Source: a phage. From it: a stretch of DNA of 53,024 nt. The notes under the pieces are model-generated. The model saw nothing but the letters and a program-made list of their open reading frames with translations. It searched no databases and was not told where the DNA came from. Each line of letters starts with the position of its first letter. The stretch's first letter is position 1. Location: the sequence record PZ386956.1; one strand, written 5' to 3'. The position numbers were made by a program, and so were the translations under genes. Of this stretch, positions 1,450 to 49,604 are shown in pieces.

Positions 1450-1450
1450 A

Positions 1451-3013
1451 ATGTCGATAACCCCAAGCAGCACGCCTAATGTCGGATACCAGCGTCCTGA
1501 GCTGACTAAGAACGCTGGTAAGTACCGAATGATTAAGGACTGCATCGAGGGGCAGGAAGCTGTTAAAGCACGCGGTGATTTTTATCTGCCTCGTCCTGAC
1601 CCTACGAACTGCACAGAAGAAAACCTGATGCGGTACAATTCGTACCTGCGTCGCGCTGTGTTCTATAACGTACTACAGCGAACTCTTTCGGGTATGACTG
1701 GCCTGGTATTCCAGCAGCAACCTGAGATGCTGATGCCTGATGATATGGAAGTGCTGAAAGTAAATATCGACGGTGCAGGTATCGGTGCTATTCAGCAAAT
1801 GCGTAAGTGCTTTAAATCAGTGCTTGCGTTTGGACGGGCAGGATTGCTGACTGACTTTCCAAAAGCACGTATCGGTGAGTTTGGTGAATCCATTGGTTTT
1901 ACCCGTAAAGAACTAATGGACGGAGAAGTGCAGCCGACAGTAACGCTGTACATGCCATGGCAGATTATAAACTGGCGAGAAGAGTATCGCAACGGCAAAG
2001 TGATGCTCACTCAAGTTGTCATTTGCGAGCAAATACCGGGGGTTACTGATGGCTTTCAGCAAGACTACACACCCGTGTGGCGTCACCTTTACCTGGATGA
2101 AGAAGGCAATTGCAACCAGTCTTTGTGGGTCAATAAGGGCGACAAGAACGCGCAGAACGTCTCCGGCGGCGCGGTGTATGTCACGCAAGAGAATGTTGTC
2201 CTACGCGACTCCAATGGCTTACCGCTGAAGTTTATTCCGTTCCAGTTTATTGGTTCTGAAACAAACAGCGCTGAGATTGACCCTCCGCCGATGTACGACT
2301 TAGCTGTGCTTAATATTGCACACTACCGTAACTCTGCTGACTACGAAGAATCATGCTTCGTAACAGGTCAACCCACAGTATGGGCTTCTGGACTTACTGA
2401 GGCCTGGGTTGAGGATGTGCTTAAAGGTGAACTGCGACTCGGTTCGTTTGGTGGTATTCCGCTGCCGGCTAACGCCGCTGTAGGTATCATTCAGACCAGT
2501 CCTAACACTCAGCCGTTTGAAGCGATGAAGCAAAAAGAAGCACAGATGATTGCAATCGGTGCTCGACTCATTCGTGAGAATGGTAAGGTAGAACGACGCG
2601 AAGTTGAGATTAAGAATGAAGCTGCATCTGAGGCTTCGCTTATCGTAACTGTTGCGCAGAACGTTGAAGCTGCTTATCGGAAAGCAATCGAATGGTGTGG
2701 CCTGTTCTACGGACACCCTAAAGAAGAAATTACGATTAACCTCAGCTACAACTTCATCTATAGCCAGTTGACTTATCAAGAACGTCAGCAGCTGGTTAAC
2801 GAATGGATTGCTGGTGCTATCACGTTCAGTGAGATGCGTAGTAATCTCAAACAGGCTGGCATTGCTAAACTCACTGACGAAGAAGCTAAGAAGCTCATTG
2901 ATGAAGAGCTGGCTGAACGTGATGCACGTGAGGTAGCAAAAGAAGCAGAAAAGAACGCTCAAGCAGCTAAGAACAGCGATGGGCAGGAAAATAATCCAGA
3001 AAAAACTGAATAA
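1451..3013 (+). CDS. portal protein
   Basis: 520-aa ORF immediately downstream of terL (conserved head-gene order); acidic C-terminus; ATG at 1451 after TAA. Confidence 0.8.
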   Translation: MSITPSSTPNVGYQRPELTKNAGKYRMIKDCIEGQEAVKARGDFYLPRPDPTNCTEENLMRYNSYLRRAVFYNVLQRTLSGMTGLVFQQQPEMLMPDDMEVLKVNIDGAGIGAIQQMRKCFKSVLAFGRAGLLTDFPKARIGEFGESIGFTRKELMDGEVQPTVTLYMPWQIINWREEYRNGKVMLTQVVICEQIPGVTDGFQQDYTPVWRHLYLDEEGNCNQSLWVNKGDKNAQNVSGGAVYVTQENVVLRDSNGLPLKFIPFQFIGSETNSAEIDPPPMYDLAVLNIAHYRNSADYEESCFVTGQPTVWASGLTEAWVEDVLKGELRLGSFGGIPLPANAAVGIIQTSPNTQPFEAMKQKEAQMIAIGARLIRENGKVERREVEIKNEAASEASLIVTVAQNVEAAYRKAIEWCGLFYGHPKEEITINLSYNFIYSQLTYQERQQLVNEWIAGAITFSEMRSNLKQAGIAKLTDEEAKKLIDEELAERDAREVAKEAEKNAQAAKNSDGQENNPEKTE

Positions 3014-3018
3014 AGCTA

Positions 3019-3047
3019 TTTACTTTCGGTTTACCTGGCTATATAAT
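3019..3047 (+). promoter_or_regulatory. sigma70-type promoter TTTACT-N17-TATAAT
   Basis: Exact TTTACT (3019-3024), 17-nt spacer, TATAAT (3042-3047) upstream of the scaffold-capsid operon; same consensus recurs at several module boundaries. Confidence 0.45.
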
Positions 3048-3190
3048 CCTTCATGTCAACCGCGCAACAGCCGGCCACGAGAGTCTGCAGGGCTCAGTGG
3101 ATTTCGGATGGCTGGCTGCGCGGTTTGACCCAAACCTGTTCAGAGCCCACTTGAGTGGATTGAGCCCCTCTCATATAGGATTGTAAAATT

Positions 3191-3904
3191 ATGGCACTTA
3201 AAACAGTTGTAACTGACCTTACCGAAGTTGATGAAGGCTTCCGTGGCCTGTATATCAAAGACGAAGCATCTGGCGCATTCCGTTTGGACGTTGAACCAGA
3301 CGAAAAAACGCTGAAAGAATTAGAAGACCTGCGCAAAGAAAAACAGCGTATGGAACAGCACACCAAAAAGCTTCTCGAAGAAAAGAAAAAAGAAGCTGAA
3401 CGTGCTCGCCTGGCTGAAGAAGAACGCGCACGTCGTGAGCGTGATGTTGAATCTCTTGAGCGCTCTATCAAAGAGAAACATCAGGCTGAACTGGAACAGT
3501 ATACTAATCGTCAGGCACAGCTGCAAGCTCAGCTGGAAGCGCAAATGGTTGATAACCTGGCGCTGAACCTGGCTAACCAACTCTCTGACACCCCGGCACT
3601 TATTATGCCACACATCAAGGCCCGACTGCGCGCTCAGGAAATTGATGGTAAGTGGCGTACTACTGTCGTGGATGTTATGGGTAACCCGACTGCTACAACG
3701 CCAGATGAACTAGTGGAACATATGCGCGCTGATAAGCAGTTTGCACCTCTTGTGCGTGGAACCAAGGCTGGCGGTGGCGGTGCCAACGGCGGCGGAGCTA
3801 ATCCTGGTGGGAACGGCGGTGGCGAACAGCACACTTTCGGAGGCGGGGACGACCGCATAGCACGTGCTCGTGCTAAAATCCAAAACACACAATGGGGCAA
3901 ATAA
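3191..3904 (+). CDS. head scaffolding protein
   Basis: 237 aa; charged E/K/R-rich helical centre (EEKKKEAERARLAEEERARRERD), Gly-rich C-terminal tail; directly precedes the capsid gene. Confidence 0.6.
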   Translation: MALKTVVTDLTEVDEGFRGLYIKDEASGAFRLDVEPDEKTLKELEDLRKEKQRMEQHTKKLLEEKKKEAERARLAEEERARRERDVESLERSIKEKHQAELEQYTNRQAQLQAQLEAQMVDNLALNLANQLSDTPALIMPHIKARLRAQEIDGKWRTTVVDVMGNPTATTPDELVEHMRADKQFAPLVRGTKAGGGGANGGGANPGGNGGGEQHTFGGGDDRIARARAKIQNTQWGK

Positions 3905-3907
3905 TTT

Positions 3908-4885
3908 ATGTCACTGTATATTTTTAACGAACAAGTACGTTCTACCGCCACCGAACTGGTCGACCAGGACGTACAGAAGTTTAACGAAGCTTCTGCTGGT
4001 ACCCTTATCCTGGGTAACCAGTACGTAATCGGTGATTACGTTGAGCAGGCAATGTGGCAGCTGGTTGACGGTATCGCTACTCGTCGTAACGCTTACGCAG
4101 GCACCAACAAAGTTGATGCGCAGACTCTGGGCCAGATTCTGGACCGTTCTGTTAAGATCGACGGCCGTGTTGGTCCTCTGAACATTACCGGTACTATGAT
4201 GCGTCGCATCGGTGCAGGTGATACTGAACCAGCAGCTGTTGTTGCTGCACAGGCTTCTGCTGCGATGTTCCAGGATTACCTGAACACCACTGCTGCATGT
4301 CTGGTAGCTGCTATCGGCGCAAACGCTGATGTTGTTCTGGACGTAACTGCAGGCTCTGGTGCTGCTGCAAACATCACTATGCAGAACCTGAACAAAGTCA
4401 ACGCGAAGATGGGTGACCGTTCTCAGCAGATTCGTGCATACATCATGCATTCTACTGCGTTCCACTCTCTCATCGACCAGGCCATCAACAACACGGAACA
4501 CCTGTTCCAGATTGGTGACCTGAACGTGTACAAAGACTTCCTGGGTCGTCGTTATGTCGTTTCCGACATCCCGGCTCTGGTTGATGGCGCCGGTGCTTCC
4601 GCTAAGTACCGCACTCTGGGTCTGACCCCGTCTGCTGCAATCGTTCAGGTCGGCGGCCTGTACGACATGGTTACCTCCGAGCAAACCGGTGGTGAAAACA
4701 TCCTGCGTCAGATGCAGGGTGAATACGACTTCAACGTGTCGCTGAAAGGCTACAGCTGGGTCGGTCACAAAGCTGGTCAGTCTCCGACTGATGAAGACCT
4801 GGCTGCTCAGGCGTCCTGGTCTAAAGTTGCGACTTCCAACAAAGACACCGCTGGTGTTATGTTGCTGGCTAAGTCTGCAATCTAA
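3908..4885 (+). CDS. major capsid protein
   Basis: 325-aa ORF 4 nt after the scaffold gene; Ala/Gly/Val-rich composition; followed by a strong intrinsic terminator. Confidence 0.8.
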   Translation: MSLYIFNEQVRSTATELVDQDVQKFNEASAGTLILGNQYVIGDYVEQAMWQLVDGIATRRNAYAGTNKVDAQTLGQILDRSVKIDGRVGPLNITGTMMRRIGAGDTEPAAVVAAQASAAMFQDYLNTTAACLVAAIGANADVVLDVTAGSGAAANITMQNLNKVNAKMGDRSQQIRAYIMHSTAFHSLIDQAINNTEHLFQIGDLNVYKDFLGRRYVVSDIPALVDGAGASAKYRTLGLTPSAAIVQVGGLYDMVTSEQTGGENILRQMQGEYDFNVSLKGYSWVGHKAGQSPTDEDLAAQASWSKVATSNKDTAGVMLLAKSAI

Positions 4886-4907
4886 CCCACAAACGGGACT
4901 AACAAAC

Positions 4908-4937
4908 GGCGAGCTGACTAGCTCGCCTTTTTTATTT
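4908..4937 (+). terminator. rho-independent terminator after capsid gene
   Basis: GGCGAGCT-gact-AGCTCGCC hairpin followed by TTTTTTATTT. Confidence 0.7.
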
Positions 4938-4963
4938 ACACGTATAAAGTTCTGGTATATAAT
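4935..4963 (+). promoter_or_regulatory. sigma70-type promoter TTTACA-N17-TATAAT
   Basis: TTTACA 4935-4940, 17-nt spacer, TATAAT 4958-4963, immediately after the capsid terminator and before the neck genes. Confidence 0.45.
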
Positions 4964-4989
4964 CGGACTAAACTTGCTGGAGGCTTTCT

Positions 4990-5490
4990 ATGGCATACAC
5001 ACTTGTTGTGGAAGACGGTTCAATTGTTCCGGGTGCTAACTCGTATGTTAGTGCTGCAGAAGTGGATGAGTTTATCACTAACGAAGGTATTCTCATTCAA
5101 CCAGGAACTGACCCGTACTACCAGGCTGCCAAAGCAGCTATTCGACTGGACAACCAATTTAACTGGTTAGGTCGTAAGGTCAGCAAAGCGCAGAACATGG
5201 CTTGGCCACGTACTGGCCTCGGCGCATGTAATGTTGATATAGCGGAATCTGTAATTCCGCGAGAAGTTAAGCTGGCACAGCTTTATATGCTGGCTAGCGT
5301 ATTGAGCTACGACGGCGAGGAAGGTGTACGCGGTGACCAGGCTTTGCGCCGTAAGAAAGTTGGTAACCTGGAGATTGAATACTTCGACTCCAAGTCAGGT
5401 GTTACCGGTGCAACTGACCTTTGGACTTCAGACGTCAAGGTCATGCTCAAGCACCTTGTGGGTGCATCACTGAGAACGCGGAGAGTATAA
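4990..5490 (+). CDS. head-tail connector/adaptor protein (putative)
   Basis: 166-aa ORF, first gene after capsid, RBS GGAGG upstream; assignment from position in head module only. Confidence 0.5.
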   Translation: MAYTLVVEDGSIVPGANSYVSAAEVDEFITNEGILIQPGTDPYYQAAKAAIRLDNQFNWLGRKVSKAQNMAWPRTGLGACNVDIAESVIPREVKLAQLYMLASVLSYDGEEGVRGDQALRRKKVGNLEIEYFDSKSGVTGATDLWTSDVKVMLKHLVGASLRTRRV

Positions 5491-5978
5491 TGATTCGCAT
5501 ACGCCTTTACCGTCGTGACAAACAAAAGTTCGAGTACACCTACCGTGCCTTTAAGTCATTCGAAGGTCAAGGCGTATCAGTAGGTGTTCACCCAGAACAT
5601 AACAGACGTGTAAACCCCAGGGACCGTATAACAAACGCAGAGCTAGCAATGGTGCATGAATACGGTCTCAACGGTCTGCCAGAACGAAGCTTTCTTCGTA
5701 GTGCTGTTGGTGGCAGGGGTAAAGGCCGACAGGCAATAAACAAAGCTTTCCGTGATAATGTGCCTGCTGTTCTCAGAGGAAGCATGACTGTGCATGAGCT
5801 CAACGACAAAATAGGTCGTATGCTTGTTGACGCTGTTCACGACAGAATGGACAGTGACGTGCCACCTCCTAACACCGAGCTGACAGAAGAACGCAAACGC
5901 GGACCTGGTACGCTTAGAGAATCTATGCAGTTGTACGATTCGATAGGGTACAAGGTCGGCAGAAACTGGAGGCTATAA
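5490..5978 (+). CDS. head completion / neck protein (putative)
   Basis: Start moved to ATG at 5490 (TAATG overlap with upstream stop, RBS GGAGAG); track ORF begins earlier at 5421. Function from position. Confidence 0.45.
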   Translation: MIRIRLYRRDKQKFEYTYRAFKSFEGQGVSVGVHPEHNRRVNPRDRITNAELAMVHEYGLNGLPERSFLRSAVGGRGKGRQAINKAFRDNVPAVLRGSMTVHELNDKIGRMLVDAVHDRMDSDVPPPNTELTEERKRGPGTLRESMQLYDSIGYKVGRNWRL

Positions 5979-6355
5979 TGCTCAAGATAACTTCGCTAAT
6001 GAAGGATAAAACCTTTGTAGCATTAACGGATGTTCTTCTCCGAAACGATTCGCGCTTACCAAATGGCGACTTCGAAGACGAATATACAGCTGCAAAGTAT
6101 CTGTGTAACATTCAACCTGGTGCAGCTACCAACCAGCCTAACCTGTTGACTAAAGACGATGGCGAGCATGAGTTCCCACGTATTGCGATATACAGTGGAC
6201 AAGAGCTGAAGCTCGGAGACTTCGTTATATACGAAGACCAACCCTACCGTGTATTCCGTATCGACCCATGGAGTCGTCATGGCCACTACTACGTTACAGC
6301 AATTCTCCATAAAGGACCTCAGGGAGCTCGTTCAGAAGCTTTTACCATTACCTGA
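5978..6355 (+). CDS. neck/tail completion protein (hypothetical)
   Basis: 125-aa ORF coupled to the upstream stop; 3' end overlaps the next ORF. Confidence 0.4.
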   Translation: MLKITSLMKDKTFVALTDVLLRNDSRLPNGDFEDEYTAAKYLCNIQPGAATNQPNLLTKDDGEHEFPRIAIYSGQELKLGDFVIYEDQPYRVFRIDPWSRHGHYYVTAILHKGPQGARSEAFTIT

Positions 6356-6806
6356 CGGGACATGTATTATTGGTGAAGAGTCTGGTACAGTTGACGGTAG
6401 TCCGTATGTTTACTTGCGCCCTGGCGACGCATATGACTTCGGACCTCCTCGAACCAGACAAGGCGCTGACGGCTTTGAGTACGTCAGTAAGCCTATGATG
6501 ACATCTGTACGTATTACAGCTGTCGGTAAGAATGCTGCTGAGCTAATGCGTAAGCTACACATAGCACTGGGTAGTTCACCAGCTAAGCAGTTTAACCGTT
6601 TACGACATTATGCAATAACCAAAATATCGAAGATTGATAATGTCGGTGGTGCTATCGGTGCAGGCTATGCCCAGAAGTCAATGATGACTGTCGACATTAG
6701 CTATGTACATAAAGTTAAAATTGAGCAACCGTACATCTACAAGGTTGACATCACTTGTATGGATGATAACGGTAACAAAGCGACTGGTACAGTAGAGGAA
6801 CCGTAA
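6279..6806 (+). CDS. hypothetical virion protein
   Basis: Start chosen at ATG 6279 (MATTTLQQF) with GGAG 5 nt upstream; track ORF starts 6249; overlaps previous gene by 77 nt in another frame. Confidence 0.4.
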   Translation: MATTTLQQFSIKDLRELVQKLLPLPDGTCIIGEESGTVDGSPYVYLRPGDAYDFGPPRTRQGADGFEYVSKPMMTSVRITAVGKNAAELMRKLHIALGSSPAKQFNRLRHYAITKISKIDNVGGAIGAGYAQKSMMTVDISYVHKVKIEQPYIYKVDITCMDDNGNKATGTVEEP

Positions 6807-7429
6807 TGGCAACTGAAGTAGACCCGGAACTGCAAGCGCAGCTGGATAAGCTAACAACTGCTGTCCAGCTCATTCATGACTTCGGTATGTCAGACAACCC
6901 AAACATCCCTAACCCAGAAGGTGGTGTCATACGCACACTCGAAGGCATTAACGCTGCAATCAATGAAGCTATACCAAACTTTGAAAATGCTAACGAAGCT
7001 GCTATCCAGGCGCGCGCTGCTCGTGATGCAGCTATTGCAGCCAAAGAAGCTGCAGAAGCCGCAGCTGAACAGGCTACAGTATCTTCGACGTCAGCAATCT
7101 ATGAGTATGGCAACGTTGCAAGTGCAGCTACCGTAACTATACCTGCTGCATCTAAAACAATTGTCAGCCTTACTCTTAACCAGCCAAACACCGTAATTAA
7201 TATCGGTGGTGTATCTGACCCGTCTACTGTTGCACGTCAGATTACTATTGCTATTAAGCAAGGCACTGGTTCTAACAAGGTGACTTCTTGGGATCCAAGA
7301 ATAAAATGGGCCAACAACAGGAAGCCCGTTCTGTCATTCCTTGTGGGTTACACAGATGTTGTTACGTTGCTGACCTTTGACTCAGGCGCAACTTGGATGG
7401 GTTTCTTTAACGGTGGATGGATTAAATAA
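6806..7429 (+). CDS. hypothetical virion protein
   Basis: 207 aa; Ala/Glu-rich helical segment then beta-rich C-terminus; ATG overlaps upstream stop. Confidence 0.45.
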   Translation: MATEVDPELQAQLDKLTTAVQLIHDFGMSDNPNIPNPEGGVIRTLEGINAAINEAIPNFENANEAAIQARAARDAAIAAKEAAEAAAEQATVSSTSAIYEYGNVASAATVTIPAASKTIVSLTLNQPNTVINIGGVSDPSTVARQITIAIKQGTGSNKVTSWDPRIKWANNRKPVLSFLVGYTDVVTLLTFDSGATWMGFFNGGWIK

Positions 7430-42003: not shown

Positions 42004-44512
42004 TATTCTCGGTCTGAAATACTTTAAGCCAGAAGGGATTCCCCAAGTCTTCAAAGATATGAAGCGCTGGGCTATCTTTGAGCTGACGTACGAAGACGAG
42101 ACCCTCGAAGTTCAATCCAAACCTAAGAAACCTGCAAGAGCGCCATCAGGCCGTTCCTTCAGCACAACAGTGCCTGAAGAGTGGATGACTTTCGACGACG
42201 CCCTGACACGTTGTATCCGCAATCGTGAAATGAAGATTAAAGCTGTACAGGGTAACATCACCTTTGTGCCGGCTTTGATTGTTCCTCGCCAGTGGTACTT
42301 TGTTGACCTGGACAACCATGATGATAATCCAGACATTGAAGCTACCCACAAAGCGATAATTGAGGGGACTCGTGGCGCTTATGCTGAGACGTCAATCTCC
42401 GGCAAAGGGCAACACATTGCAATCCCTTTACCCTGGACTGCAGCAACATCCAAAGAGAAAGACGAACAGCTGGACATCAAAATCCAGAAGGCTGAGATGT
42501 TCCTGGTAATGACAGGCAATGTATTGAGCGAGTTCAATGCTAATCCTGTTTCAGCCCGTGAATGGCATGCAGCAATTGAGAAGTTCTTTCTTGAATCAAG
42601 CGCACCTGACATTGATGTTGAGTTTGAGCAAGACGAAGACCGTGGCGAAGAGTATGACAAAGAGCTATACGAACAGTTAGCCGACAATACTCGCTGGGCG
42701 CTTGAACATTATCTTAGCGACTATGCACCAGACGGTGTTGGTGTGAGTAATGACGGTTCCGAACGTTTAAGCCGCATACTCAAAGACTTGCTTCGTGTAA
42801 CCCGTAACTATGAAGTTACACAACGCATCTTCATGGCCAGCAAAGCTGCAGCATATGAAGGCCGCAGACCAAGTCGACATAACCTGTCTGTTGATAAGTA
42901 TCATCAGTGGTTCAGTCGTGTCGGTAAGACTGTGCTGAAAGAGATGCAACGTGACGGCTTATTCGTTAAGACCAAGTTTGCTCTTGACATCAACAAAGAG
43001 TTAGCCAAGAATTCAGGTGTCTCCCTGGCTGAGAACGTTGAGTTCAAGGTCAACGACGACATTCTGCCTTCTGATGTATTCGTCAGGACGGCCCCGTCCG
43101 GGTTTAAACGGCTTATTGCTGAGATACAGGATAACATATCTCCTGCTAACAGGGTTAACGACTATGCCATCGGCACAGCTCTTAACATCCTGAGCAACTG
43201 CGCCGGTCGCAAGTATGTTTGTCCAGTAGGTGGTCATGCTAACTTCCTGGTAACCAACATCATTCTTGTGGGTGGTTCATCAATCGGTAAATCCCTGTAT
43301 ACCGAAATGTTCCCACAAATCCAGGCAAGTTTACCTGACACATCACCTATCAGCCTTAACCGTATCCCAAGGGAACAGACTTTTGCAACCAGGACGTTTG
43401 CTGAACTGATGTCCAACCCGTCATACCATTCAGTTCAGTTGTTCTATCCTGAATTTGGTCTGGCTTTAGGTTCAGGCTTACGCATGAATCCTAACAACCC
43501 GGACAACTTTCAGAAAGCTCTGATGGACGCTTCAACCAAGCGTAAGGTTGGCGGTATACTGACAGGTATCAAACGTGCTAATGCTGACAATGATGTTAAG
43601 ACTGTAAGCGAACCGTGCTACTCTATCCTGGGTGACTCAACTCAAGAGCTTATCCTTGACAACACCCGGAAGCAAGACTTCTCAAGTGGCTTTTTGCCCC
43701 GCTTCCTGTTCATCCCGAACTATGAGCGAGCGGAGTTTGCCAAACCTGAGAAAGTAGGACGTCGCCAGCAGATTCGCCGTACATCCTTTTCAAAGGAGCT
43801 GATTGAGAAGCTGGAAGCAATCGCTTATGTGAATGCTATCCCGCCTAACGGTAAACTAAGGCATGACCCGATTCCTATTTACGACGAATCGGATGATGAC
43901 GACTTCCTGTACGAGTACCAGTGCAATATTAATGACATGCGCCAGTATTACAGGGACAACGAAGTAGCATCCGCCTTTGTGGGCCGAATGGGTGAGTATG
44001 TATTCAACATAGCAGCACTGATTGGTTTACTCGACAACTGGGATGCTCCTGTAATGACCAGGGACAACATTGAATGGGCTTACAAATACGTTCTTCGCTG
44101 TATAACCGCCTGGGTCAATAACACAAGCAGAATAGTCGCACCTCCGACTACCAACGCCGAAGTAGTGGACGGCTTCCTCAAAGTCTACAGGGACATTTTG
44201 GCCCTTTACACCAAAAGAGGCTGGAACGGTATTGTTAAGCATTATCCTGAAGGTGTTGTAAGAAGCTTACGGGAAGACCATCTGAAAATGAACGGGCTTA
44301 GCATATATGCTATCCGGCAATCATTAAGTTGGTTCAAGTCCAATTATGGCTTTAACATAACCGCTAATAACAAGGTTATTGACGGTATGTTGCAGGATAT
44401 GATTGACCAGGACTATTTAGCAGTCCAAATATACAAACCCACAAGAGGTAAATCGGCAAATATCTACTGTTTAACTGAACGGGGATACGACGAAGCCAAG
44501 AAACTTAAGTAA
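41978..44512 (+). CDS. DNA primase-helicase (AEP prim-pol domain fused to SF3/D5-type helicase)
   Basis: 844 aa; N-terminal AEP motifs (FVDLDNHD with DxD; SGKGQHIAI with His), C-terminal P-loop VGGSSIGKS. Confidence 0.8.
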   Translation: MTMTSQPSDILGLKYFKPEGIPQVFKDMKRWAIFELTYEDETLEVQSKPKKPARAPSGRSFSTTVPEEWMTFDDALTRCIRNREMKIKAVQGNITFVPALIVPRQWYFVDLDNHDDNPDIEATHKAIIEGTRGAYAETSISGKGQHIAIPLPWTAATSKEKDEQLDIKIQKAEMFLVMTGNVLSEFNANPVSAREWHAAIEKFFLESSAPDIDVEFEQDEDRGEEYDKELYEQLADNTRWALEHYLSDYAPDGVGVSNDGSERLSRILKDLLRVTRNYEVTQRIFMASKAAAYEGRRPSRHNLSVDKYHQWFSRVGKTVLKEMQRDGLFVKTKFALDINKELAKNSGVSLAENVEFKVNDDILPSDVFVRTAPSGFKRLIAEIQDNISPANRVNDYAIGTALNILSNCAGRKYVCPVGGHANFLVTNIILVGGSSIGKSLYTEMFPQIQASLPDTSPISLNRIPREQTFATRTFAELMSNPSYHSVQLFYPEFGLALGSGLRMNPNNPDNFQKALMDASTKRKVGGILTGIKRANADNDVKTVSEPCYSILGDSTQELILDNTRKQDFSSGFLPRFLFIPNYERAEFAKPEKVGRRQQIRRTSFSKELIEKLEAIAYVNAIPPNGKLRHDPIPIYDESDDDDFLYEYQCNINDMRQYYRDNEVASAFVGRMGEYVFNIAALIGLLDNWDAPVMTRDNIEWAYKYVLRCITAWVNNTSRIVAPPTTNAEVVDGFLKVYRDILALYTKRGWNGIVKHYPEGVVRSLREDHLKMNGLSIYAIRQSLSWFKSNYGFNITANNKVIDGMLQDMIDQDYLAVQIYKPTRGKSANIYCLTERGYDEAKKLK

Positions 44513-44516
44513 AATC

Positions 44517-44566
44517 AAGGGCTTATGTAGTAAAATACGTAAGCCCTTATTTTATATACTCTTTTT
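44517..44566 (+). terminator. terminator-like hairpin after primase-helicase gene
   Basis: AAGGGCTTA-(14 nt)-TAAGCCCTT followed by T-rich ATTTTATATACTCTTTTT. Confidence 0.45.
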
Positions 44567-44568
44567 GC

Positions 44569-44902
44569 TCCGGTAGACTAGTTATGGAATAAATAAACCG
44601 TGTTTTTCGAATTAAGTGCACTTAAGCTACTGTTTTATATACTCTTTTCTTTTTACATGAATTAGTAAATATATGGAGCCCTTTATAAAGAAAAAGGGGG
44701 GTAATAAGGGGATACAAGTACCGGATAAAAGGGGTATATATTTATTTATTATTATTATTATTATTATATATTATTAATTATATTAGAAGTAATAAAAACA
44801 GCTACTTAGAGGCGTCTATATGTATGATCCGGTTTATCTCTTTATTAATATCAGAACCGGATGAAAAAAAATTACGCCGGCGAAAAAAAATAAAAAACCG
44901 GA
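44569..44902. promoter_or_regulatory. putative replication-origin region: ACCGGA iteron-like repeats, AT tract, A-tracts
   Basis: Five ACCGGA/TCCGGT copies (44569, 44720, 44828, 44856, 44897), 8-bp IR ATCCGGTT/AACCGGAT, palindrome CGCCGGCG, two A8 runs; no ORF. Confidence 0.35.
44735..44786. repeat. pure A/T tract with (ATT)n microsatellite
   Basis: About 52 nt of only A/T including TTATT(ATT)6-like run. Confidence 0.7.
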
Positions 44903-45533: not shown

Positions 45534-45958
45534 ATATTCGTGTTATTGGCCAGAACTTTGAGAGAAAGATGGCTAAAAAATTCAACGAATCTTTTGGACT
45601 TGACTGCCAGCGTAACCTGCAGCAATCAATAAATGGCGGGGATGACTTGCTTGGTATACCGTTTTTCAGCGTTGAACTGAAGAAGCACAAGACCAAGTCT
45701 ATCGGAACATGGTGGAGACAGTGTGCGGCATCGGCAAAGGCTCAGAACAAGATGCCGGTACTGATATACGAACTACCAAGAAAACAGCCTACCGTGGTGA
45801 TGAATAAGGCTGATGTGATTGACTGCTTTCCAAGTGGCACGACTTTTAACGAGGCATCGAACCGCCTCTTTGTGGGTCTAGTAGAATTAACATGGGAACA
45901 ATTTTGCCGGGTCTACAACTATTACGTTGCGCCCGGCACTCAATATCACGTCAATTAA
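45527..45958 (+). CDS. VRR-NUC-like PD-(D/E)xK nuclease (putative)
   Basis: 143 aa; D...E-x-K arrangement (GDDLLGIPFFSVELKK) typical of small phage nucleases/resolvases; overlaps Bro-N stop. Confidence 0.45.
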   Translation: MVNIRVIGQNFERKMAKKFNESFGLDCQRNLQQSINGGDDLLGIPFFSVELKKHKTKSIGTWWRQCAASAKAQNKMPVLIYELPRKQPTVVMNKADVIDCFPSGTTFNEASNRLFVGLVELTWEQFCRVYNYYVAPGTQYHVN

Positions 45959-46140
45959 TCTTGTTTCAGCTCGTCACAAATAACACGCTGATTTTTGGCA
46001 GGGATAATACCAAGATTCAGTAAGGTGTATGGACTATCGGCGGCACATTGTTCAACGGTAGTCCATTCAGGTTTGGATTCAACAATTTTGTAACTACAAT
46101 CATGAGTAGCCACACATGTTGCCAGGATTAAGCCAATCAC
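45955..46140 (-). CDS. small hypothetical protein (hydrophobic N-terminus, possible lipoprotein)
   Basis: 61-aa ORF, GTG start overlapping upstream stop (GTGA); N-terminus MIGLILATC. Confidence 0.4.
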   Translation of the reverse strand: MIGLILATCVATHDCSYKIVESKPEWTTVEQCAADSPYTLLNLGIIPAKNQRVICDELKQD

Positions 46141-46316
46141 AAGTAATCGCCTTCAACCAGGAACTCAAACAATTGGTTGTAGACGTTGCAACCTTTAGCG
46201 AAAGAGCTTTCAGCAGGTTTACCATCGCGGACGATCATCATATACTCACCGCCATGGATGTCCACCCAGTATTGCATGCCACCTTTGACCGGGTTACGTT
46301 GTAAGAATTTAAACAT
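46137..46316 (-). CDS. small hypothetical protein (59 aa, not in ORF track)
   Basis: ATG with AAGGAG RBS 6 nt upstream, TAATG-coupled to upstream gene and GTGA-coupled to downstream gene; reads MFKFLQRNPVKGGMQYWVDIHGGEYMMIVRDGKPAESSFAKGCNVYNQLFEFLVEGDYL. Confidence 0.45.
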   Translation of the reverse strand: MFKFLQRNPVKGGMQYWVDIHGGEYMMIVRDGKPAESSFAKGCNVYNQLFEFLVEGDYL

Positions 46317-46561
46317 TATTTGCTCCTTATTCCAAGTTTATTCAATAGCCAAATTGTCATGTCAACCCAGGTTAACGGTACAGTTTTCGGGGGTTGATAA
46401 TTCCAGCAGCTTGCAGTTCTTTGTATTTCTGCTTGGCGCCGCTCCGCTTCGCGTAATACCGCATCGTCAGAAGTGCCGGCAGAAAAAAGATCGGTAACAC
46501 CAGATAAATCGCGTTGATTAACACGTCGAGCAATGTCATATAAATCATCCTTAGAAAACAT
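46316..46561 (-). CDS. hypothetical protein
   Basis: 81-aa ORF in early leftward cluster. Confidence 0.45.
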   Translation of the reverse strand: MFSKDDLYDIARRVNQRDLSGVTDLFSAGTSDDAVLREAERRQAEIQRTASCWNYQPPKTVPLTWVDMTIWLLNKLGIRSK

Positions 46562-46700
46562 AAGCCAATACCATAAGAATTATCAGAAAGATCCCAACCA
46601 GCTTCCTCATGGCCCGACCTTCAGCATATGCAGGATTCACAACAGAATACTCAACAACATGTTTACAGCGGACCATAAGGCCTCCACTTGTGGGTTAATT

Positions 46701-46737
46701 CAATCATGAGGACTTTTGGCAAATCCTCATTGTTGAA
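46701..46737 (-). repeat. conserved intergenic hairpin, copy 1
   Basis: Plus strand CAATCATGAGGACTTTTGGCAAATCCTCATTGTTGAA, immediately 3' of the stop of gene 46738..46941. Confidence 0.55.
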
Positions 46738-46941
46738 TCACTCCATCATTACCTGAACTATTATTATACACTCTTTATTGAAGCGGGTAAATACCTTTCC
46801 TCCATTGGTGCGTTTAGCCCCAGATTTTAGAGCTGACTGGCACCAGACATGCCACTCCTCAACTGTCAAGAATTTTTGCTCAGCTTTGGGTGGTAGTCCA
46901 TTGGCAAGGTCTACCGTAGTAAATTTGACCAGCGGCATCAC
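46738..46941 (-). CDS. hypothetical protein
   Basis: 67-aa ORF, ATGA-coupled to upstream gene. Confidence 0.4.
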   Translation of the reverse strand: MMPLVKFTTVDLANGLPPKAEQKFLTVEEWHVWCQSALKSGAKRTNGGKVFTRFNKECIIIVQVMME

Positions 46942-47327
46942 TTAACCTCAAATTTTGACTCGTCATATTCCGGATCAGTCACGTCCCGGGTAGCACAATT
47001 TTTGATTGCCTCCCAGTAACGTTGGGCGTCATCGCCATCGACATAAACTGTCCAGTGGCCGTAACCACCTTCAAATCTGTCCCAGGCTTGTTCCCAGACT
47101 TTGCCATCTTCCAGCTTGTACCAAGTTGGACGACTGTCAAACTCGCGGATTGGATGGTACCCCATCAAAGGATTCATCAGGTCAATAATGTCTTCCCGAC
47201 TAATCTCCTGGTTCTCCCACAACACCGTCATGAATTGCTCAAACTTGAAGGCGTTTGGCAGAACTTTGATGACTTCACCATCACGATATACGGTATAGGT
47301 ACCATCTTCGCATTTTGCACTGTACAT
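46938..47327 (-). CDS. hypothetical protein
   Basis: Start ATG 47327 (AGGAG RBS, MYSAKCEDG...); track first Met at 47360 lies inside hairpin copy 2. Confidence 0.5.
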   Translation of the reverse strand: MYSAKCEDGTYTVYRDGEVIKVLPNAFKFEQFMTVLWENQEISREDIIDLMNPLMGYHPIREFDSRPTWYKLEDGKVWEQAWDRFEGGYGHWTVYVDGDDAQRYWEAIKNCATRDVTDPEYDESKFEVK

Positions 47328-47353
47328 GTTTCTCTCTCCTATTGATATAATTT

Positions 47354-47394
47354 CAATCATGAACTATCACAACTTTGGATAGTTCATTGTTGAA
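47354..47394 (-). repeat. conserved intergenic hairpin, copy 2 (compensatory stem)
   Basis: CAATCATGA-ACTATC-acaacttt-GGATAGTT-CATTGTTGAA: same flanks as copies 1 and 3 but a different, still complementary, stem. Confidence 0.55.
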
Positions 47395-47395
47395 A

Positions 47396-47569
47396 CTATA
47401 CTAACTTTGTTGCGATCTGAATTGTCAGCCGGAAATCTTCCATCAAGTTATCAAACTCTTTGGAACCGCCAACCGCATCAGATATTTGATCTTTCACGAT
47501 TTGGGCATTTGATTCCAGTAATTCAATCAGGTGCGCCAATTCGTCTTCAGTCAATTTCAGATCTTTCAT
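47396..47569 (-). CDS. hypothetical protein
   Basis: Start ATG 47569 overlapping upstream stop (ATGA); 57 aa. Confidence 0.4.
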   Translation of the reverse strand: MKDLKLTEDELAHLIELLESNAQIVKDQISDAVGGSKEFDNLMEDFRLTIQIATKLV

Positions 47570-47823
47570 AATGCATCCACCCAAGCCATAACTTTTGCCA
47601 GTCTTACAACGTCTTCATGGTCCCGATCGCCATCAGAAAATTCGCTGGCGATGATACCCATAATTGACGCCAGATTCATGTTGATGATGTACGAGTGTTC
47701 CCGCACTTCATCAATTCCTGAATCTATCACCAATTCCGCAAATTCCTGCGAACCTTCATCCCATTCAGCCCAATACTGCTCAGCATAAAAGTCCAGTTCT
47801 TTTTTCATCTCAATATCAGTCAT
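47566..47823 (-). CDS. hypothetical acidic protein
   Basis: 85-aa ORF, acidic. Confidence 0.45.
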   Translation of the reverse strand: MTDIEMKKELDFYAEQYWAEWDEGSQEFAELVIDSGIDEVREHSYIINMNLASIMGIIASEFSDGDRDHEDVVRLAKVMAWVDAL

Positions 47824-47828
47824 TTTGA

Positions 47829-47987
47829 TTACTCCTCAGAACCTGAAAATTTGTCGTCAATGGTTTCAACGATATAATCAAGAGTTGAAGTGTGAGAACT
47901 ATCAGAAAAAGTGCCCATCTTCTCTAACTCAATCATCATATCCCGCAAAGCCATCGCCTGGTCTTTGGTCAGTTTGATTTTAAGCAT
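47829..47987 (-). CDS. hypothetical protein
   Basis: Start ATG 47987 (GGAG RBS, MLKIKLTKDQ...); 52 aa; track start 48029 lies inside hairpin GATGGCACT-acttg-AGTGCCATC. Confidence 0.35.
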   Translation of the reverse strand: MLKIKLTKDQAMALRDMMIELEKMGTFSDSSHTSTLDYIVETIDDKFSGSEE

Positions 47988-48051
47988 GTTTCTCTCCTGT
48001 TGATTGTGAATAATTTCAATTGATGGCACTACTTGAGTGCCATCTCAAAAA

Positions 48052-48621
48052 TTACTCTTCAGTTTCTTGTGCTTCAGTTTCAGGTTTTTCTTCAGTCTCA
48101 GGTTTTTCGCCTGTTACTGATTTGCCCTCAGTCACTTTACCAGATTTTACATCATTACGGTAATATGACATATAGGATTGGACAACACGTTTTGCCCTAA
48201 TATCATCCGCTTCCATCCCACAGGCTTTCATGGCATCAGCCAGCGCCAATTTGGAATCTTCTTTGTCCATCAAGTTGTAATCCTTGAATACTGCATAGCA
48301 TGTATCCTTGGTTGACGGACCGGATGAAGTTTTGCGGGTGCCACCTGCAGATGCACGTGATGCCGCAACTTTGACCTCTTCAACTTCCAGTTGGTTAAGC
48401 TCATCAAACAAGGCTTTCACCAGCACTTCTTTGGAGTCTTTGACAGTTACAGAACTTTCATCATTAAGGGACTTAATCATCTTAATGATCTGGTTATTGG
48501 CAAAGTACTGAAGACTATCCATCTGCACTACAATAGTCCCAAGACTTTCAGTAGTCAGACCAGATTTTACAGACTCAACAGAAAAGGCGGAAGTCAGGTA
48601 AACATAGTTGATAGTAGTCAT
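48052..48621 (-). CDS. hypothetical protein with acidic PETEE-repeat tail
   Basis: Start ATG 48621 (MTTINYVYL...); 189 aa; C-terminus EKPETEEKPETEAQETEE. Confidence 0.5.
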   Translation of the reverse strand: MTTINYVYLTSAFSVESVKSGLTTESLGTIVVQMDSLQYFANNQIIKMIKSLNDESSVTVKDSKEVLVKALFDELNQLEVEEVKVAASRASAGGTRKTSSGPSTKDTCYAVFKDYNLMDKEDSKLALADAMKACGMEADDIRAKRVVQSYMSYYRNDVKSGKVTEGKSVTGEKPETEEKPETEAQETEE

Positions 48622-48677
48622 TGATGTATCCTCATTGATAGAATTTTTGATAAGTGTCAATCCTTGACAAGTAAGTC

Positions 48678-48715
48678 CAATCATGAGGACTTTTACCAAG
48701 TCCCCATTGTTGGAA
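48678..48715 (-). repeat. conserved intergenic hairpin, copy 3
   Basis: CAATCATGAGGACTTTTACCAAGTCCCCATTGTTGGAA immediately 3' of the stop of gene 48717..48890. Confidence 0.55.
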
Positions 48716-48716
48716 A

Positions 48717-48890
48717 TTACTTCAATTTATCCAGAATTGATTGGAGTAACTTGACCCTCACTTCCTGGTCTTTGACATCCCTTCCACTTTCCCTGTCATA
48801 TTCCAACAGGTCACTTTCCATAAATAAGGTTGTGTCCAGTTGGTCAACCAATAATTCCAGTTCTTCTTGGGACAATTCTAAAACTTTCAT
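48717..48890 (-). CDS. hypothetical protein
   Basis: Start ATG 48890 (AGGAG RBS, MKVLELSQEE...); 57 aa, acidic helical. Confidence 0.4.
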   Translation of the reverse strand: MKVLELSQEELELLVDQLDTTLFMESDLLEYDRESGRDVKDQEVRVKLLQSILDKLK

Positions 48891-48894
48891 CTTA

Positions 48895-49044
48895 TTACTC
48901 CTGATATTTAACAACTTGGGATTGGATAAAGTCAACACAATCTTCCACATCCATTGACTCAAAGTCTGGAACTGGACCAGTATTTATATTGACACACCAA
49001 AGCCCTTCATTGGTATCATACCAAAGTGTGTAGTTGTCCTTCAT
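48895..49044 (-). CDS. hypothetical protein
   Basis: Start ATG 49044 (AGAGGTG RBS, MKDNYTLWYD...); 49 aa; track GTG start 49098 is an alternative. Confidence 0.35.
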   Translation of the reverse strand: MKDNYTLWYDTNEGLWCVNINTGPVPDFESMDVEDCVDFIQSQVVKYQE

Positions 49045-49428
49045 AATAGTCACCTCTTGTATTAGTTTCCAGTTGTGACTACTGTTACCAATAGTCACTG
49101 GTTGAAACTATTACTAGTGTTACTATCAACAAGAAACATGTTACCAAATTGTTAAAGAGCAAAAGGTACCATTGACATCTACCAGATGTACCTGTTGACT
49201 GGTTAAGTACTACCTACCCAAATTAAACCATACCAATACCCTCCAGACCAGTTGACTGGTCACTCAGTCATCACATTCAATAAATATATAATAGTCCAAT
49301 CCCTCTTGATTGTACACCTTATATTTGTAAGTTTATGCAAGTTTTTAGAAATGATAATCACTTGCGGTTGAGAGTGGTTCTCATATACAATTGATATAGT
49401 TTCACATGTAATTACTCAACTCAAAATG

Positions 49429-49483: not shown

Positions 49484-49604
49484 TTTCTAAAAATATAATT
49501 TCAATCTGAATTATAGACGCTTTGTACTATAACGGCCGAAGTAGTTCACCCGGTAATTGTATCAATCACAATAGTTACCAGAGTAATCATTTCAATTGAA
49601 ATAG

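What the first reader, a model, noticed from the sequence alone, without database searches (positions are those of the whole stretch)
46701..48715. Family of conserved hairpins with compensatory stem changes placed right after stop codons in the early leftward cluster
Three intergenic sites (46701..46737, 47354..47394, 48678..48715) share flanks CAATCATGA ... CATTGTTG(G)AA. Copies 1 and 3 have stem GAGGAC/GTCCTC-like arms; copy 2 has a different but perfectly complementary stem (GAACTATC/GATAGTTC). Covariation with conserved flanks points to selection for structure. Each lies immediately 3' of a stop codon on the transcribed strand and lacks a U-tract, so they are more likely RNase processing or stability elements or attenuators than terminators. 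Two further hairpins of other sequence sit at about 48022..48044 and 49077..49105, and a TTTCAATTGA motif recurs nearby.
Basis: seen in the sequence. Interest (0 to 1): 0.55.

Follow-up and report, generated by a model that had tools for sequence, protein, structure and literature searches.

The report
Conserved hairpins between phage early genes
A family of two-part RNA hairpins sits right after the stop codons of small leftward genes in this Salmonella/E. coli phage and its relatives, is clearly kept by selection, and most likely marks where host RNase III cuts a long early messenger, as in phage T7.

Summary
The window is a Rosemountvirus-type myovirus. The three sites are minus-strand RNA hairpins with one design: stop codon, lower stem (5-12 bp), small internal loop (5'-CA/GA-3'), 10-bp upper stem, loop of 5-9 nt. 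Three perfect copies occur against 0.01 expected. The two "other" hairpins are diverged members (3x4 and 5x5 loops).

The family recurs in every relative examined that carries the cluster (15 phage genomes and contigs), with over 20 different stem sequences. In 17 variants, 13 of 14 pairs show compensatory changes. G.U pairs occur only on the transcribed strand. Members lie 0-5 nt after a stop codon and mostly 18-26 nt before the next start.

Architecture, position and the base pairs next to the loop (A-U, U-A, G-C) match phage T7's early RNase III processing signals, though a covariance model finds no sequence relation. I favour single-strand RNase III processing that leaves protective 3' hairpins (confidence about 0.5, untested).

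The hairpins also coincide with gene-cassette insertion, deletion and relocation breakpoints. No paper found describes them. One GenBank record labels two as promoters.

The parts
46696..46740 (-). On minus-strand RNA the stop codon UGA (46740-46738) is part of the lower stem. Lower stem UUCAA 46737-46733 pairs with UUGAA 46703-46699. The internal loop is CA 46732-46731 opposite GA 46705-46704. Upper stem AUGAGGAUUU 46730-46721 pairs with AAGUCCUCAU 46715-46706. The terminal loop is GCCAA 46720-46716. The predicted RNase III cut on the 3' strand lies between 46706 and 46702.
   Evidence: -25.2 kcal/mol, z -5.7; covariance model 74 bits; 0 nt after the stop codon, 22 nt before the next ATG.
47345..47401 (-). 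Element B (site 2), between g14 and g15. The lower stem extends to 12 bp. The core is 47352-47394: UUCAA, CA, AUGAACUAUC, loop CAAAGUUGU, GAUAGUUCAU, GA, UUGAA. The stop codon UAG lies 1 nt upstream. The predicted cut lies between 47359 and 47355.
   Evidence: inverted repeat I1, 23-nt arms; -25.8 kcal/mol, z -8.2. The element is 98% identical in phage KE26 although no flanking DNA similarity remains.
48664..48725 (-). Element C (site 3), between g10 and g11. The core is 48676-48714: UCCAA, CA, AUGGGGACUU, loop GGUAA, AAGUCCUCAU, GA, UUGGA, and it includes a G.U pair. An outer helix follows after a small bulge. The stop codon UAA lies 2 nt upstream. The predicted cut lies between 48683 and 48679.
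   Evidence: searches (-25.4 kcal/mol, z -5.0; 73 bits), 57, and 74 (orthologues show G-C to C-G and G-C to A-U compensatory changes).
48008..48057 (-). Diverged family member between g11 and g12. It has a 10-bp lower stem (GAGUAAUUUU/GAAAUUAUUC), a 3x4 internal loop (UGA/AAUU), a 9-bp upper stem (GAUGGCACU/AGUGCCAUC) and the loop CAAGU. Its 3' strand keeps the family motif AAUUGAAAUUAU.
   Evidence: z -6.9; Loughboroughviruses have an unrelated but fully paired upper stem, CAGACCUCU/AGAGGUCUG, at the same position; the lower stem covaries in L138.
49063..49110 (-). Diverged family member upstream of the first gene of the cluster (g9, start at 49044), so in leader position. It has a 7-bp lower stem (UAGUUUC/GAAACUA), a 5x5 internal loop, a 10-bp upper stem (GUGACUAUUG/CAGUAGUCAC) and the loop GUAA. 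An outer helix (to about 49046-49125) reaches the g9 ribosome-binding site.
   Evidence: z -4.3; covariance model hit at 49064-49112, E 0.04; A-U to G-C compensatory change in BP63.
45955..49044 (-). Leftward cluster of 12 small genes (g9 to g20, 41-189 aa) of unknown function that the hairpins punctuate. It is the presumed polycistronic early or host-takeover unit. In the relative fHy-Eco03 the equivalent cluster lies inside a 3.7-kb terminal repeat.
47328..47357 (-). Spacer and ribosome-binding segment downstream of element B (GAUUGAAAUUAU...AGGAGAGAGAAAC AUG). It is repeated downstream of the g11-g12 hairpin (47988-48020). Phage SPLA11 has deleted everything between the two copies.
   Evidence: (window 47985-48020 matches BP63 2003-2036 at 92%; the SPLA11 junction).

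Best explanation
The elements are cis-acting RNA structures in the leftward, presumably early, polycistronic transcript made by host RNA polymerase. One lies in the leader and one after each of several cistrons. Each is a quasi-continuous helix of about two turns (17-24 bp) interrupted by a small defect 9-11 bp below the terminal loop. The most likely mechanism is the one known for the phage T7 early transcript. Host RNase III binds the helix, and the defect limits it to cutting one strand, on the 3' side at or just below the internal loop. The predicted cut is ...CAU GA(U)|UGAA, about 0-3 nt below the upper stem. The upstream cistron then ends in a stable 10-bp hairpin that blocks 3'-5' exonucleases, and the downstream cistron starts about 20 nt before its ribosome-binding site.

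Shown here: the structures exist, are far beyond chance, are confined to this cluster and strand, are conserved with many compensatory changes across the related phages examined, act at RNA level, and sit in fixed register with stop and start codons.

Inferred: that the cluster is one early transcript, that RNase III is the enzyme, the position of the cut, and the stabilising outcome.

Because the same 60-70-nt unit (hairpin plus spacer plus ribosome-binding site) is repeated between genes, it also serves, probably as a by-product, as short homology for recombination that inserts, deletes and relocates gene cassettes.
For: Structure and significance: (3 perfect copies against 0.01 expected, all on the minus strand; 4 in the first 50 kb of the KE26 genome, all in its cluster). 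A covariance model finds only the cluster copies in the whole window and in the KE26 stretch.

Covariation: 17 distinct variants give 99.6% paired cells, 13 of 14 pairs with double changes, 0 of 500 shuffles reaching this, and slid controls of 30-48% paired. Synteny-aligned orthologues, which were not selected for pairing, show compensatory changes at element C, the leader and the g11-g12 hairpin. More distant contigs add new stems.

RNA level and sense strand: the sense strand has 15 G.U cells and 1 unpaired cell, and the G.U pairs become A.C mismatches on the other strand. Several elements are 3-5 kcal/mol more stable on the sense strand.

Position: members lie 0-5 nt after stop codons and 18-26 nt (some 51-88 nt) before the next ribosome-binding site and ATG.

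T7 parallel: the T7 sites R0.3, R0.5, R1 and R1.1 fold as a lower stem, an internal loop and a 9-10-bp upper stem. At R0.5 the stop codon lies in the lower stem, at R1 the hairpin starts right after the stop codon, and R0.3 lies in the leader.

Proximal-box rule of E. coli RNase III (PMC1540722): pb1 should be G-C, pb2 A/U, pb3 A-U, and pb4 is non-Watson-Crick in natural R1.1. In the same register the family has pb4 as the A.G mismatch, pb3 A-U or U-A in 14 of 17, pb2 A/U in 16 of 17, and pb1 G-C in 16 of 17.

The defect rather than its sequence is what is kept: yarpen and BP63 carry 1x1 C.U or U.U mismatches, and the leader and g11-g12 copies carry larger loops.

Internal loops restrict RNase III to one strand and leave protective 3' hairpins (PMC1540722, PMC3867540).

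No phage RNA polymerase or RNase is annotated.
Against: There are no transcript-end or cleavage data for any phage of this group.

The distal-box pairs that matter for the minimal T7 substrate are not conserved here; only type A has the T7-like A-U/U-G (my reading).

The F-type variants (AGUG.../...CACU; in KM, L138 and L141) put a G-C pair at the position where it blocks RNase III binding in vitro.

A 2x2 or 1x1 defect is much smaller than T7's 4x5 loop. RNase III might therefore cut both strands, which would be destabilising, or might only bind.

The strong conservation of the lower-stem and loop sequence (UUCAACA...GAUUGAA) exceeds what RNase III is known to need.

The family has no sequence relation to the T7 sites (covariance model) and no Rfam family.

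The covariation table used members picked by a pairing-based scanner and cropped to a common length.
Confidence: 0.5

Rival explanations
1. The hairpins are passive stability and insulation elements that do not involve RNase III. They would block 3'-5' exonucleases after cleavage by RNase E in the A/U-rich single-stranded spacer just downstream (AUUAUUCA...), much as bacterial REP elements protect upstream cistrons, or they would simply isolate neighbouring translation-initiation regions.
For: The hairpins are stable and lie immediately 3' of cistrons. The spacers after the hairpin are A/U-rich and unpaired. Loop sequences vary freely.
Against: This idea does not explain why a helix defect is kept at a fixed distance from the loop in every member, why the three pairs above it are nearly invariant (A-U, U-A, G-C), or why the lower stem is conserved and covaries. 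A plain hairpin would be enough for an exonuclease block.
Confidence: 0.2
2. The hairpins are binding sites for a phage-encoded or host RNA-binding protein that reads the internal loop and neighbouring pairs. Such a protein could be a translational repressor or activator of the downstream gene, an antitermination factor, or a phage-specific endoribonuclease.
For: The sequence around the loop (UUCAACA AUG ... CAU GAUUGAA) is highly conserved while the apical stem varies. The distance to the next ribosome-binding site is fixed at 18-26 nt. The cluster encodes 12 proteins of unknown function.
Against: CA/GA is not invariant. Yarpen and BP63 replace it with 1x1 C.U or U.U mismatches, the lower stem changes to AUUAA or UUUUA with compensation, and the leader and g11-g12 copies have different loops. 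No recognisable RNA-binding or nuclease domain is found in the cluster.
Confidence: 0.12
3. The primary role is at DNA level. The elements would be recombination joints or mobile cassette boundaries, like the PeSL cassettes of T4-like phages, or cruciform targets for the neighbouring RusA-like resolvase. The RNA structure would be incidental.
For: Synteny breakpoints with relatives fall at the elements. SE13 has a gene-plus-hairpin insertion at 46730-46740. The g10 replacement ends at 48721. The SPLA11 deletion of 47358-47984 lies between repeated spacers. The g11 cassette is relocated in fHy-Eco03, KM, KE26 and SOI901.
Against: G.U pairs on one strand only, and compensatory changes that keep pairing, indicate selection on a single-stranded transcript rather than on duplex DNA or a two-armed cruciform. 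The strict register with stop and start codons and the single orientation also argue for an expression role. The defining promoter of PeSLs is absent. Recombination at repeats needs no dedicated function.
Confidence: 0.1
4. The hairpins are transcription attenuators or weak factor-independent terminators that grade expression along the cluster.
For: The hairpins are strong (-22 to -26 kcal/mol) and lie between genes. PeSL-type stem-loops in T4-like phages are read as terminators (PMC4122927).
Against: There is no U-tract after any copy, and the terminator scan finds nothing at these sites. The stems are A/U-rich at the base. One copy lies in the leader, upstream of the first gene.
Confidence: 0.05

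Closest known systems
RNase III processing signals of the phage T7 (and T3) early region: R0.3, R0.5, R1, R1.1, R1.3
   Same: Both are hairpins in a polycistronic early transcript made by host RNA polymerase. Both have one copy in the leader and others between cistrons. Both have a lower stem, an internal helix defect, an upper stem of about 10 bp and a small loop, for about two helical turns in total. The stop codon of the upstream gene lies in or next to the lower stem (T7 R0.5 and R1). The pairs just above the defect follow the proximal-box pattern A/U, A/U, G-C; variants D and J read AAG/CUU exactly as in T7. The 3' strand reads ...AUGAUUGA... in both T7 R1.1 and elements A and B.
   Different: There is no sequence-family relation: the covariance model does not hit the T7 sites. 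The defect is a symmetric 2x2 loop (CA/GA) or a 1x1 mismatch instead of T7's asymmetric 4x5 loop. The shared AUGAU string sits 3 nt higher relative to the upper stem. The distal-box pairs are not conserved. Cleavage is untested. The phage is an unrelated myovirus without its own RNA polymerase.
PeSL (promoter-early stem-loop) cassettes of T4-like phages (PMC2839356, PMC4122927)
   Same: Both are short conserved intergenic motifs containing a stem-loop, repeated between small non-essential early genes. Both are found at insertion, deletion and replacement breakpoints between close relatives.
   Different: PeSLs are defined by a near-consensus sigma-70 early promoter joined to a terminator-type stem-loop. 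No promoter is detectable here, and the 18-26 nt between hairpin and start codon leave no room for one. The hairpin here is bipartite with a conserved defect and has no T-run.
Bacterial REP/BIME intercistronic hairpins
   Same: Both are imperfect palindromes placed just after stop codons inside operons, and both are able to protect the upstream message from 3' exonucleases.
   Different: REP elements are host-genome repeats with their own G+C-rich consensus. They lack the conserved lower stem, defect and upper stem design, and they are not phage-borne. I did not search host genomes for the present motif.
Antitermination RNA hairpins (lambda nut boxB, HK022 put) and N4-type DNA hairpin promoters
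   Same: Both are conserved hairpins in phage early regions.
   Different: nut and put occur once per operon, near promoters, with specific loop sequences. N4 promoters are 5-7-bp stems with 3-nt loops and are read by a giant virion RNA polymerase that this phage lacks. The present elements recur after four to five cistrons, and their loops are not conserved.

Membership tests
T7-type RNase III processing signal | Hairpin of about two helical turns interrupted by an internal loop or mismatch at the target site | tested here: met
   Lower stem of 5-12 bp, a defect of 2x2, 1x1, 3x4 or 5x5, and an upper stem of 9-12 bp. The T7 sites were folded the same way for comparison.
T7-type RNase III processing signal | Proximal-box base pairs compatible with E. 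coli RNase III: pb1 G-C, pb2 A/U (G-C blocks binding), pb3 A-U, and no G-C at pb4 | tested here: met
   In the R1.1 register, pb4 is the A.G mismatch, pb3 is A-U or U-A in 14 of 17 (G-C in 3), pb2 is A/U in 16 of 17, and pb1 is G-C in 16 of 17 (rule from PMC1540722). The F-type variants misfit.
T7-type RNase III processing signal | Distal box (canonical UA/UG) about 7-8 bp above the cleavage site | tested here: not met
   Only type A has A-U/U-G there. Other variants differ (C has A-U/C-G, B has U-A/A-U), as read. Natural RNase III substrates also vary at this position.
T7-type RNase III processing signal | Leader and intercistronic positions in a polycistronic early transcript made by host RNA polymerase | tested here: inconclusive
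   The positions are met and no internal sigma-70 promoters stand out. The transcript itself has not been mapped, and no transcriptome paper was found.
T7-type RNase III processing signal | Site-specific cleavage by RNase III in vivo or in vitro | not testable with these tools
   This needs end mapping in wild-type and rnc hosts, or an enzyme assay.
T7-type RNase III processing signal | Sequence homology to the T7/T3 site family | tested here: not met
   Model R1 gives only a chance hit (E 0.87, inside gene 0.7) in T7 400-7000. There is no Rfam family.
PeSL cassette (T4-like phages) | Sigma-70-like early promoter (-35, N17, -10) joined to the stem-loop | tested here: not met
   The promoter scan is not above chance and finds nothing at elements A and B. 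There is one weak 9/12 match after element C. The 18-26-nt spacers are too short.
PeSL cassette (T4-like phages) | Located at indel or replacement boundaries between close relatives | tested here: met
   Breakpoints lie at 46730-46753, 47325-47357, 47985 and 48721.
Intrinsic (rho-independent) terminator | G+C-rich stem followed by a U-tract | tested here: not met
   The terminator scan finds none at the elements. The 3' flanks read AUUAUAUCAA, UUAACCCACA and CUUACUUGUC.
DNA cruciform or dimeric-protein operator | Symmetry usable on both strands, or a fixed spacing of half-sites | tested here: not met
   G.U pairs make the plus strand mismatched. The arm-to-arm distance varies from 35 to 43 nt.

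The most novel reading that the evidence does not exclude
The elements are a new class of phage intercistronic RNA module. It would be a self-contained hairpin, spacer and ribosome-binding-site unit, read by a dedicated factor or by RNase III in a non-T7 mode (binding without cleavage, or translation-coupled cleavage, because the stop codon sits in the lower stem). The same unit would double as the mobile joint that lets early host-takeover genes be exchanged as cassettes among Rosemountvirus, Loughboroughvirus and related phages. It would be an RNA-processing counterpart of the promoter-based PeSL cassettes.
Probability: 0.2. Interest if true: 0.65.

Novelty: new variant of a known kind. Interest (0 to 1): 0.45.

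Why it matters
If RNase III does process these sites, this phage group has independently arrived at the T7 solution for expressing a string of small early genes from one transcript. It used a different sequence family and a minimal 2x2 or 1x1 helix defect. That gives a natural set of more than 20 covarying substrates for studying how helix defects direct single-strand cleavage.

It would also correct database annotation, because two of the elements are labelled promoters in the phage S144 record. It explains the mosaic gene content of the early cluster in phages that are being developed for Salmonella and E. coli biocontrol. It could also supply compact operon-insulator parts.

Tried and rejected
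Promoter reading: the S144 GenBank record marks 4699-4739 and 3065-3083 of locus L122 as promoters. These come from a machine-learning predictor and coincide with hairpins C' and D. No sigma-70 pattern supports them.

Terminator reading: rejected because there is no U-tract.

Rfam: nothing above noise.

Exact-pattern scan of IMG/VR: about 120 stretches, almost all single chance matches. Only two contigs, which match the SE13 and ZCSE2 genomes in length, carry three copies. This was uninformative beyond close relatives.

Protein-guided scans of IMG/VR and metagenomes: only two further distant relatives, L138 and L141.

MAFFT alignment of whole elements scrambles the variable stems. I therefore cropped the members to a common length for pair counting and checked the result with synteny-based alignments.

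Scoring with the in vivo RNase III matrix of Altuvia et al. was not possible because the supplementary table is not held.

The AUG codons inside the arms are not alternative starts: there is no ribosome-binding site, and the frame relation to the next gene differs between copies (my reading). Stop-codon readthrough was considered and dropped because the stems are not conserved as coding sequence.

The CAATCATGA at 46097 is an intragenic chance match. The TTTCAATTGA motif is at chance level.

A first version of the shuffle script timed out and was rewritten.
Full report
**What the window is.** The region is 93-97% identical to Rosemountvirus phages such as BP63, emhyr, birk and SE13, and about 73-78% identical to Loughboroughvirus phages (ZCSE2, S144, SE4) and a few unclassified relatives (fHy-Eco03, vB_SE1_KM, KE25/26, Erwinia phage SOI901). 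The finding lies in a leftward (minus-strand) cluster of 12 small genes, 45955-49044, here called g9 to g20 after the emhyr annotation. All of them are of unknown function. In fHy-Eco03 the equivalent cluster lies inside a 3,699-bp direct terminal repeat. These phages encode no RNA polymerase (S144 paper; KE26 annotation). That the cluster is early and polycistronic is an inference from this context.

**Observation check.**
- On the transcribed strand the flanks are not separate from the hairpin. They form its lower stem (UUCAA/UUGAA, extendable to 8-12 bp and including the stop codon), a 2x2 internal loop (5'-CA / GA-3') and the first four pairs of a 10-bp upper stem (AUGA/UCAU). The variable part is the apical six pairs and the loop.
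- Each element folds at about -25 kcal/mol, with z-scores of -5.0 to -8.2.
- A strict scanner for this design finds 3 copies in 53 kb, all on the minus strand, against a mean of 0.01 in 100 dinucleotide shuffles.
- A covariance model built from six copies finds only these three and the 49064-49112 hairpin in the whole window.
- The hairpins at 48008-48057 and 49063-49110 share the design but have larger internal loops (3x4 and 5x5). The first keeps the 3'-strand motif AAUUGAAAUUAU.
- TTTCAATTGA is not enriched.

**The family in relatives.**
- All 15 related genomes and contigs examined that carry the cluster carry 2-5 such elements in their leftward cluster. At least ten stem types (A to J) were seen initially, and more were found in yarpen, L138 and L141.
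- Lower stems also change with compensation: UUCAA/UUGAA, UCCAA/UUGGA, AUUAA/UUAAU and UUUUA/UAAAA.
- On 17 distinct members cropped to a common length, 99.6% of cells pair and 13 of 14 pairs show changes on both sides. No shuffle out of 500 reaches this, and slid controls pair at only 30-48%.
- Those members were chosen by a pairing-based scanner, so I also aligned orthologous sites by synteny alone. Element C shows G-C to C-G and G-C to A-U exchanges and several G.U intermediates with no broken pair. The leader shows an A-U to G-C exchange. The g11-g12 hairpin has entirely different but perfectly paired upper stems in the two genera (the MAFFT alignment is off by one base).
- Between the window and S144, whose flanking genes are about 75% identical, the paired positions of elements A and B are identical and only the loops differ.
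- Element B is 98% identical in KE26, where no flanking similarity remains.

**RNA level and strand.** G.U pairs are common on the minus strand (15 cells) against one unpaired cell. On the plus strand they become A.C mismatches. All members have the same orientation as the genes. This excludes a duplex-DNA operator or a cruciform as the selected form.

**Register with genes.** Every intercistronic member begins 0-5 nt after the stop codon of an ORF of at least 59 codons. It ends 18-26 nt before the next ribosome-binding site and ATG in types A, B, D, F, G, H and I, and 51-88 nt before the g11 homologue in types C, E and J. One copy lies upstream of the first gene. Not every gap has one: the 55-nt g18-g19 gap lacks it.

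**Comparison with T7.**
- I fetched T7 and folded the regions around the RNase III sites. The site coordinates (890, 1468, 3138, 5887, 6450) are from my memory of Dunn and Studier 1983. Three of them land exactly on UAU|GAU in the record, which agrees with the remembered termini of T7 early mRNAs.
- The T7 sites show a lower stem, a 4x5 internal loop, a 9-10-bp upper stem and a 4-5-nt loop. At R0.5 the stop codon of the upstream gene lies in the lower stem, at R1 the hairpin starts right after the stop codon, and R0.3 lies in the leader.
- Pertzev and Nicholson (PMC1540722) define an 11-bp helix from the cut to the loop. They define a proximal box with G-C at pb1, A/U at pb2 (G-C there blocks binding), A-U at pb3, and a non-Watson-Crick pair at pb4 in natural R1.1.
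- In that register the present family has the A.G mismatch at pb4 and A-U, U-A and G-C above it. pb1 and pb2 fit in 16 of 17 variants, and pb3 is A/U in 14 of 17.
- Internal loops restrict RNase III to one strand and leave protective 3' hairpins.
- The CA/GA sequence is not itself essential. Yarpen and BP63 carry 1x1 C.U or U.U mismatches at the same height. This fits a structural defect better than a sequence-specific reader.
- By the R1.1 register the cut would fall after GAU on the 3' strand. By the shared string AU|GAUUGA it would fall 3 nt higher. I therefore give a 0-3-nt window.
- Against membership: there is no sequence relation to the T7 sites, no Rfam family, the distal box is not conserved, the F-type variants misfit, and there are no experimental data.

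**Cassette boundaries.** Pairwise BLAST of the cluster against eleven relatives places synteny breakpoints at the elements.
- SE13 has an extra gene plus hairpin D inserted at 46730-46740.
- The g10 replacement ends at 48721.
- SPLA11 lacks 47358-47984, which lies exactly between the repeated spacer and ribosome-binding segments downstream of element B and of the g11-g12 hairpin. Its junction was confirmed.
- The g11 cassette sits at a different place in fHy-Eco03, KM, KE26 and SOI901.

This resembles the PeSL cassettes of T4-like phages, but the defining promoter is absent. I read the recombination as a consequence of repeated short homology rather than as the selected function.

**Novelty.** Searches of the held literature on these phages found no mention of these hairpins. 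The S144 record annotates two of them as promoters from a machine-learning predictor. The kind of element, RNase III-type intercistronic processing hairpins in a phage early transcript, is classical. The sequence family, the minimal symmetric defect and the link to cassette shuffling are new, and the enzymology is unproven.

**Limits.** All functional statements are inferences from sequence. The covariation table used cropped sequences with an artificial GAAA linker in unpaired columns. The T7 site coordinates and termini rest on memory, checked only for internal consistency against the record.

Noticed in passing
L122 (phage S144, MT663719) 4699-4739 and 3065-3083, minus strand: Two 'promoter' features in the GenBank record coincide with family members C' and D. 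They come from the PhagePromoter predictor and are probably mis-annotated hairpins.
   Followed up: partly
L135 (phage yarpen) 3895-3961, 5216-5286, 5929-5995: All three yarpen elements have the 2x2 CA/GA loop replaced by a 1x1 C.U or U.U mismatch. In element A the old loop is closed by U-A and C-G pairs and a new mismatch appears one pair higher. BP63 and SPLA11 show the same change at element C.
   Followed up: partly
window 48052-48621 (g11, 189 aa): This is the largest protein of the cluster. It has homologues of about 30% identity in T4-like coliphages, Shigella, Acinetobacter and Morganella phages (SP18, VR7 and others). It ends in acidic EKPETE-type repeats encoded by tandem direct repeats at 48056-48108, which emhyr annotates as a repeat_region.
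   Followed up: no
L124 (fHy-Eco03) 1-3699: In this relative the RusA-like gene and the whole leftward small-gene cluster lie inside a 3.7-kb direct terminal repeat. Each virion DNA would therefore carry the hairpin-punctuated cluster twice. Whether the window's phage has the same ends is unknown.
   Followed up: no
window 44512-44553 and 44537-44648: Just after the primase gene there is an 18-nt inverted repeat (AAATCAAGGGCTTATGTA / TACGTAAGCCCTTATTTT) followed by a T-rich run. It is likely an intrinsic terminator. A 29-nt direct repeat sits 83 bp further on.
   Followed up: no
window 49563-49601: The palindrome TTTCAATTGAAA overlaps a promoter-like TTGAAA-16-TATTGT on the minus strand and a conserved small hairpin (AAUGAUUAC/GUAACUAUU) in the divergent intergenic region. 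GATTGAAATTATAT recurs at about 49498-49513 and in the 3' flank of element B.
   Followed up: no
window 49170-49265: TTGAC-containing motifs recur (CATTGACATC, CCTGTTGACTGGTT, CCAGTTGACTGGTC) in the region between the leftward and rightward clusters. They could be promoter -35 boxes or regulator sites.
   Followed up: no
L141 4548-4583 (metagenome contig ERZ1463040 NODE-2): In this distant relative the element after the g11 homologue is a canonical CA/GA member. Its upper stem begins AAGG...CCUU, the same first four pairs as the T7 RNase III sites.
   Followed up: no
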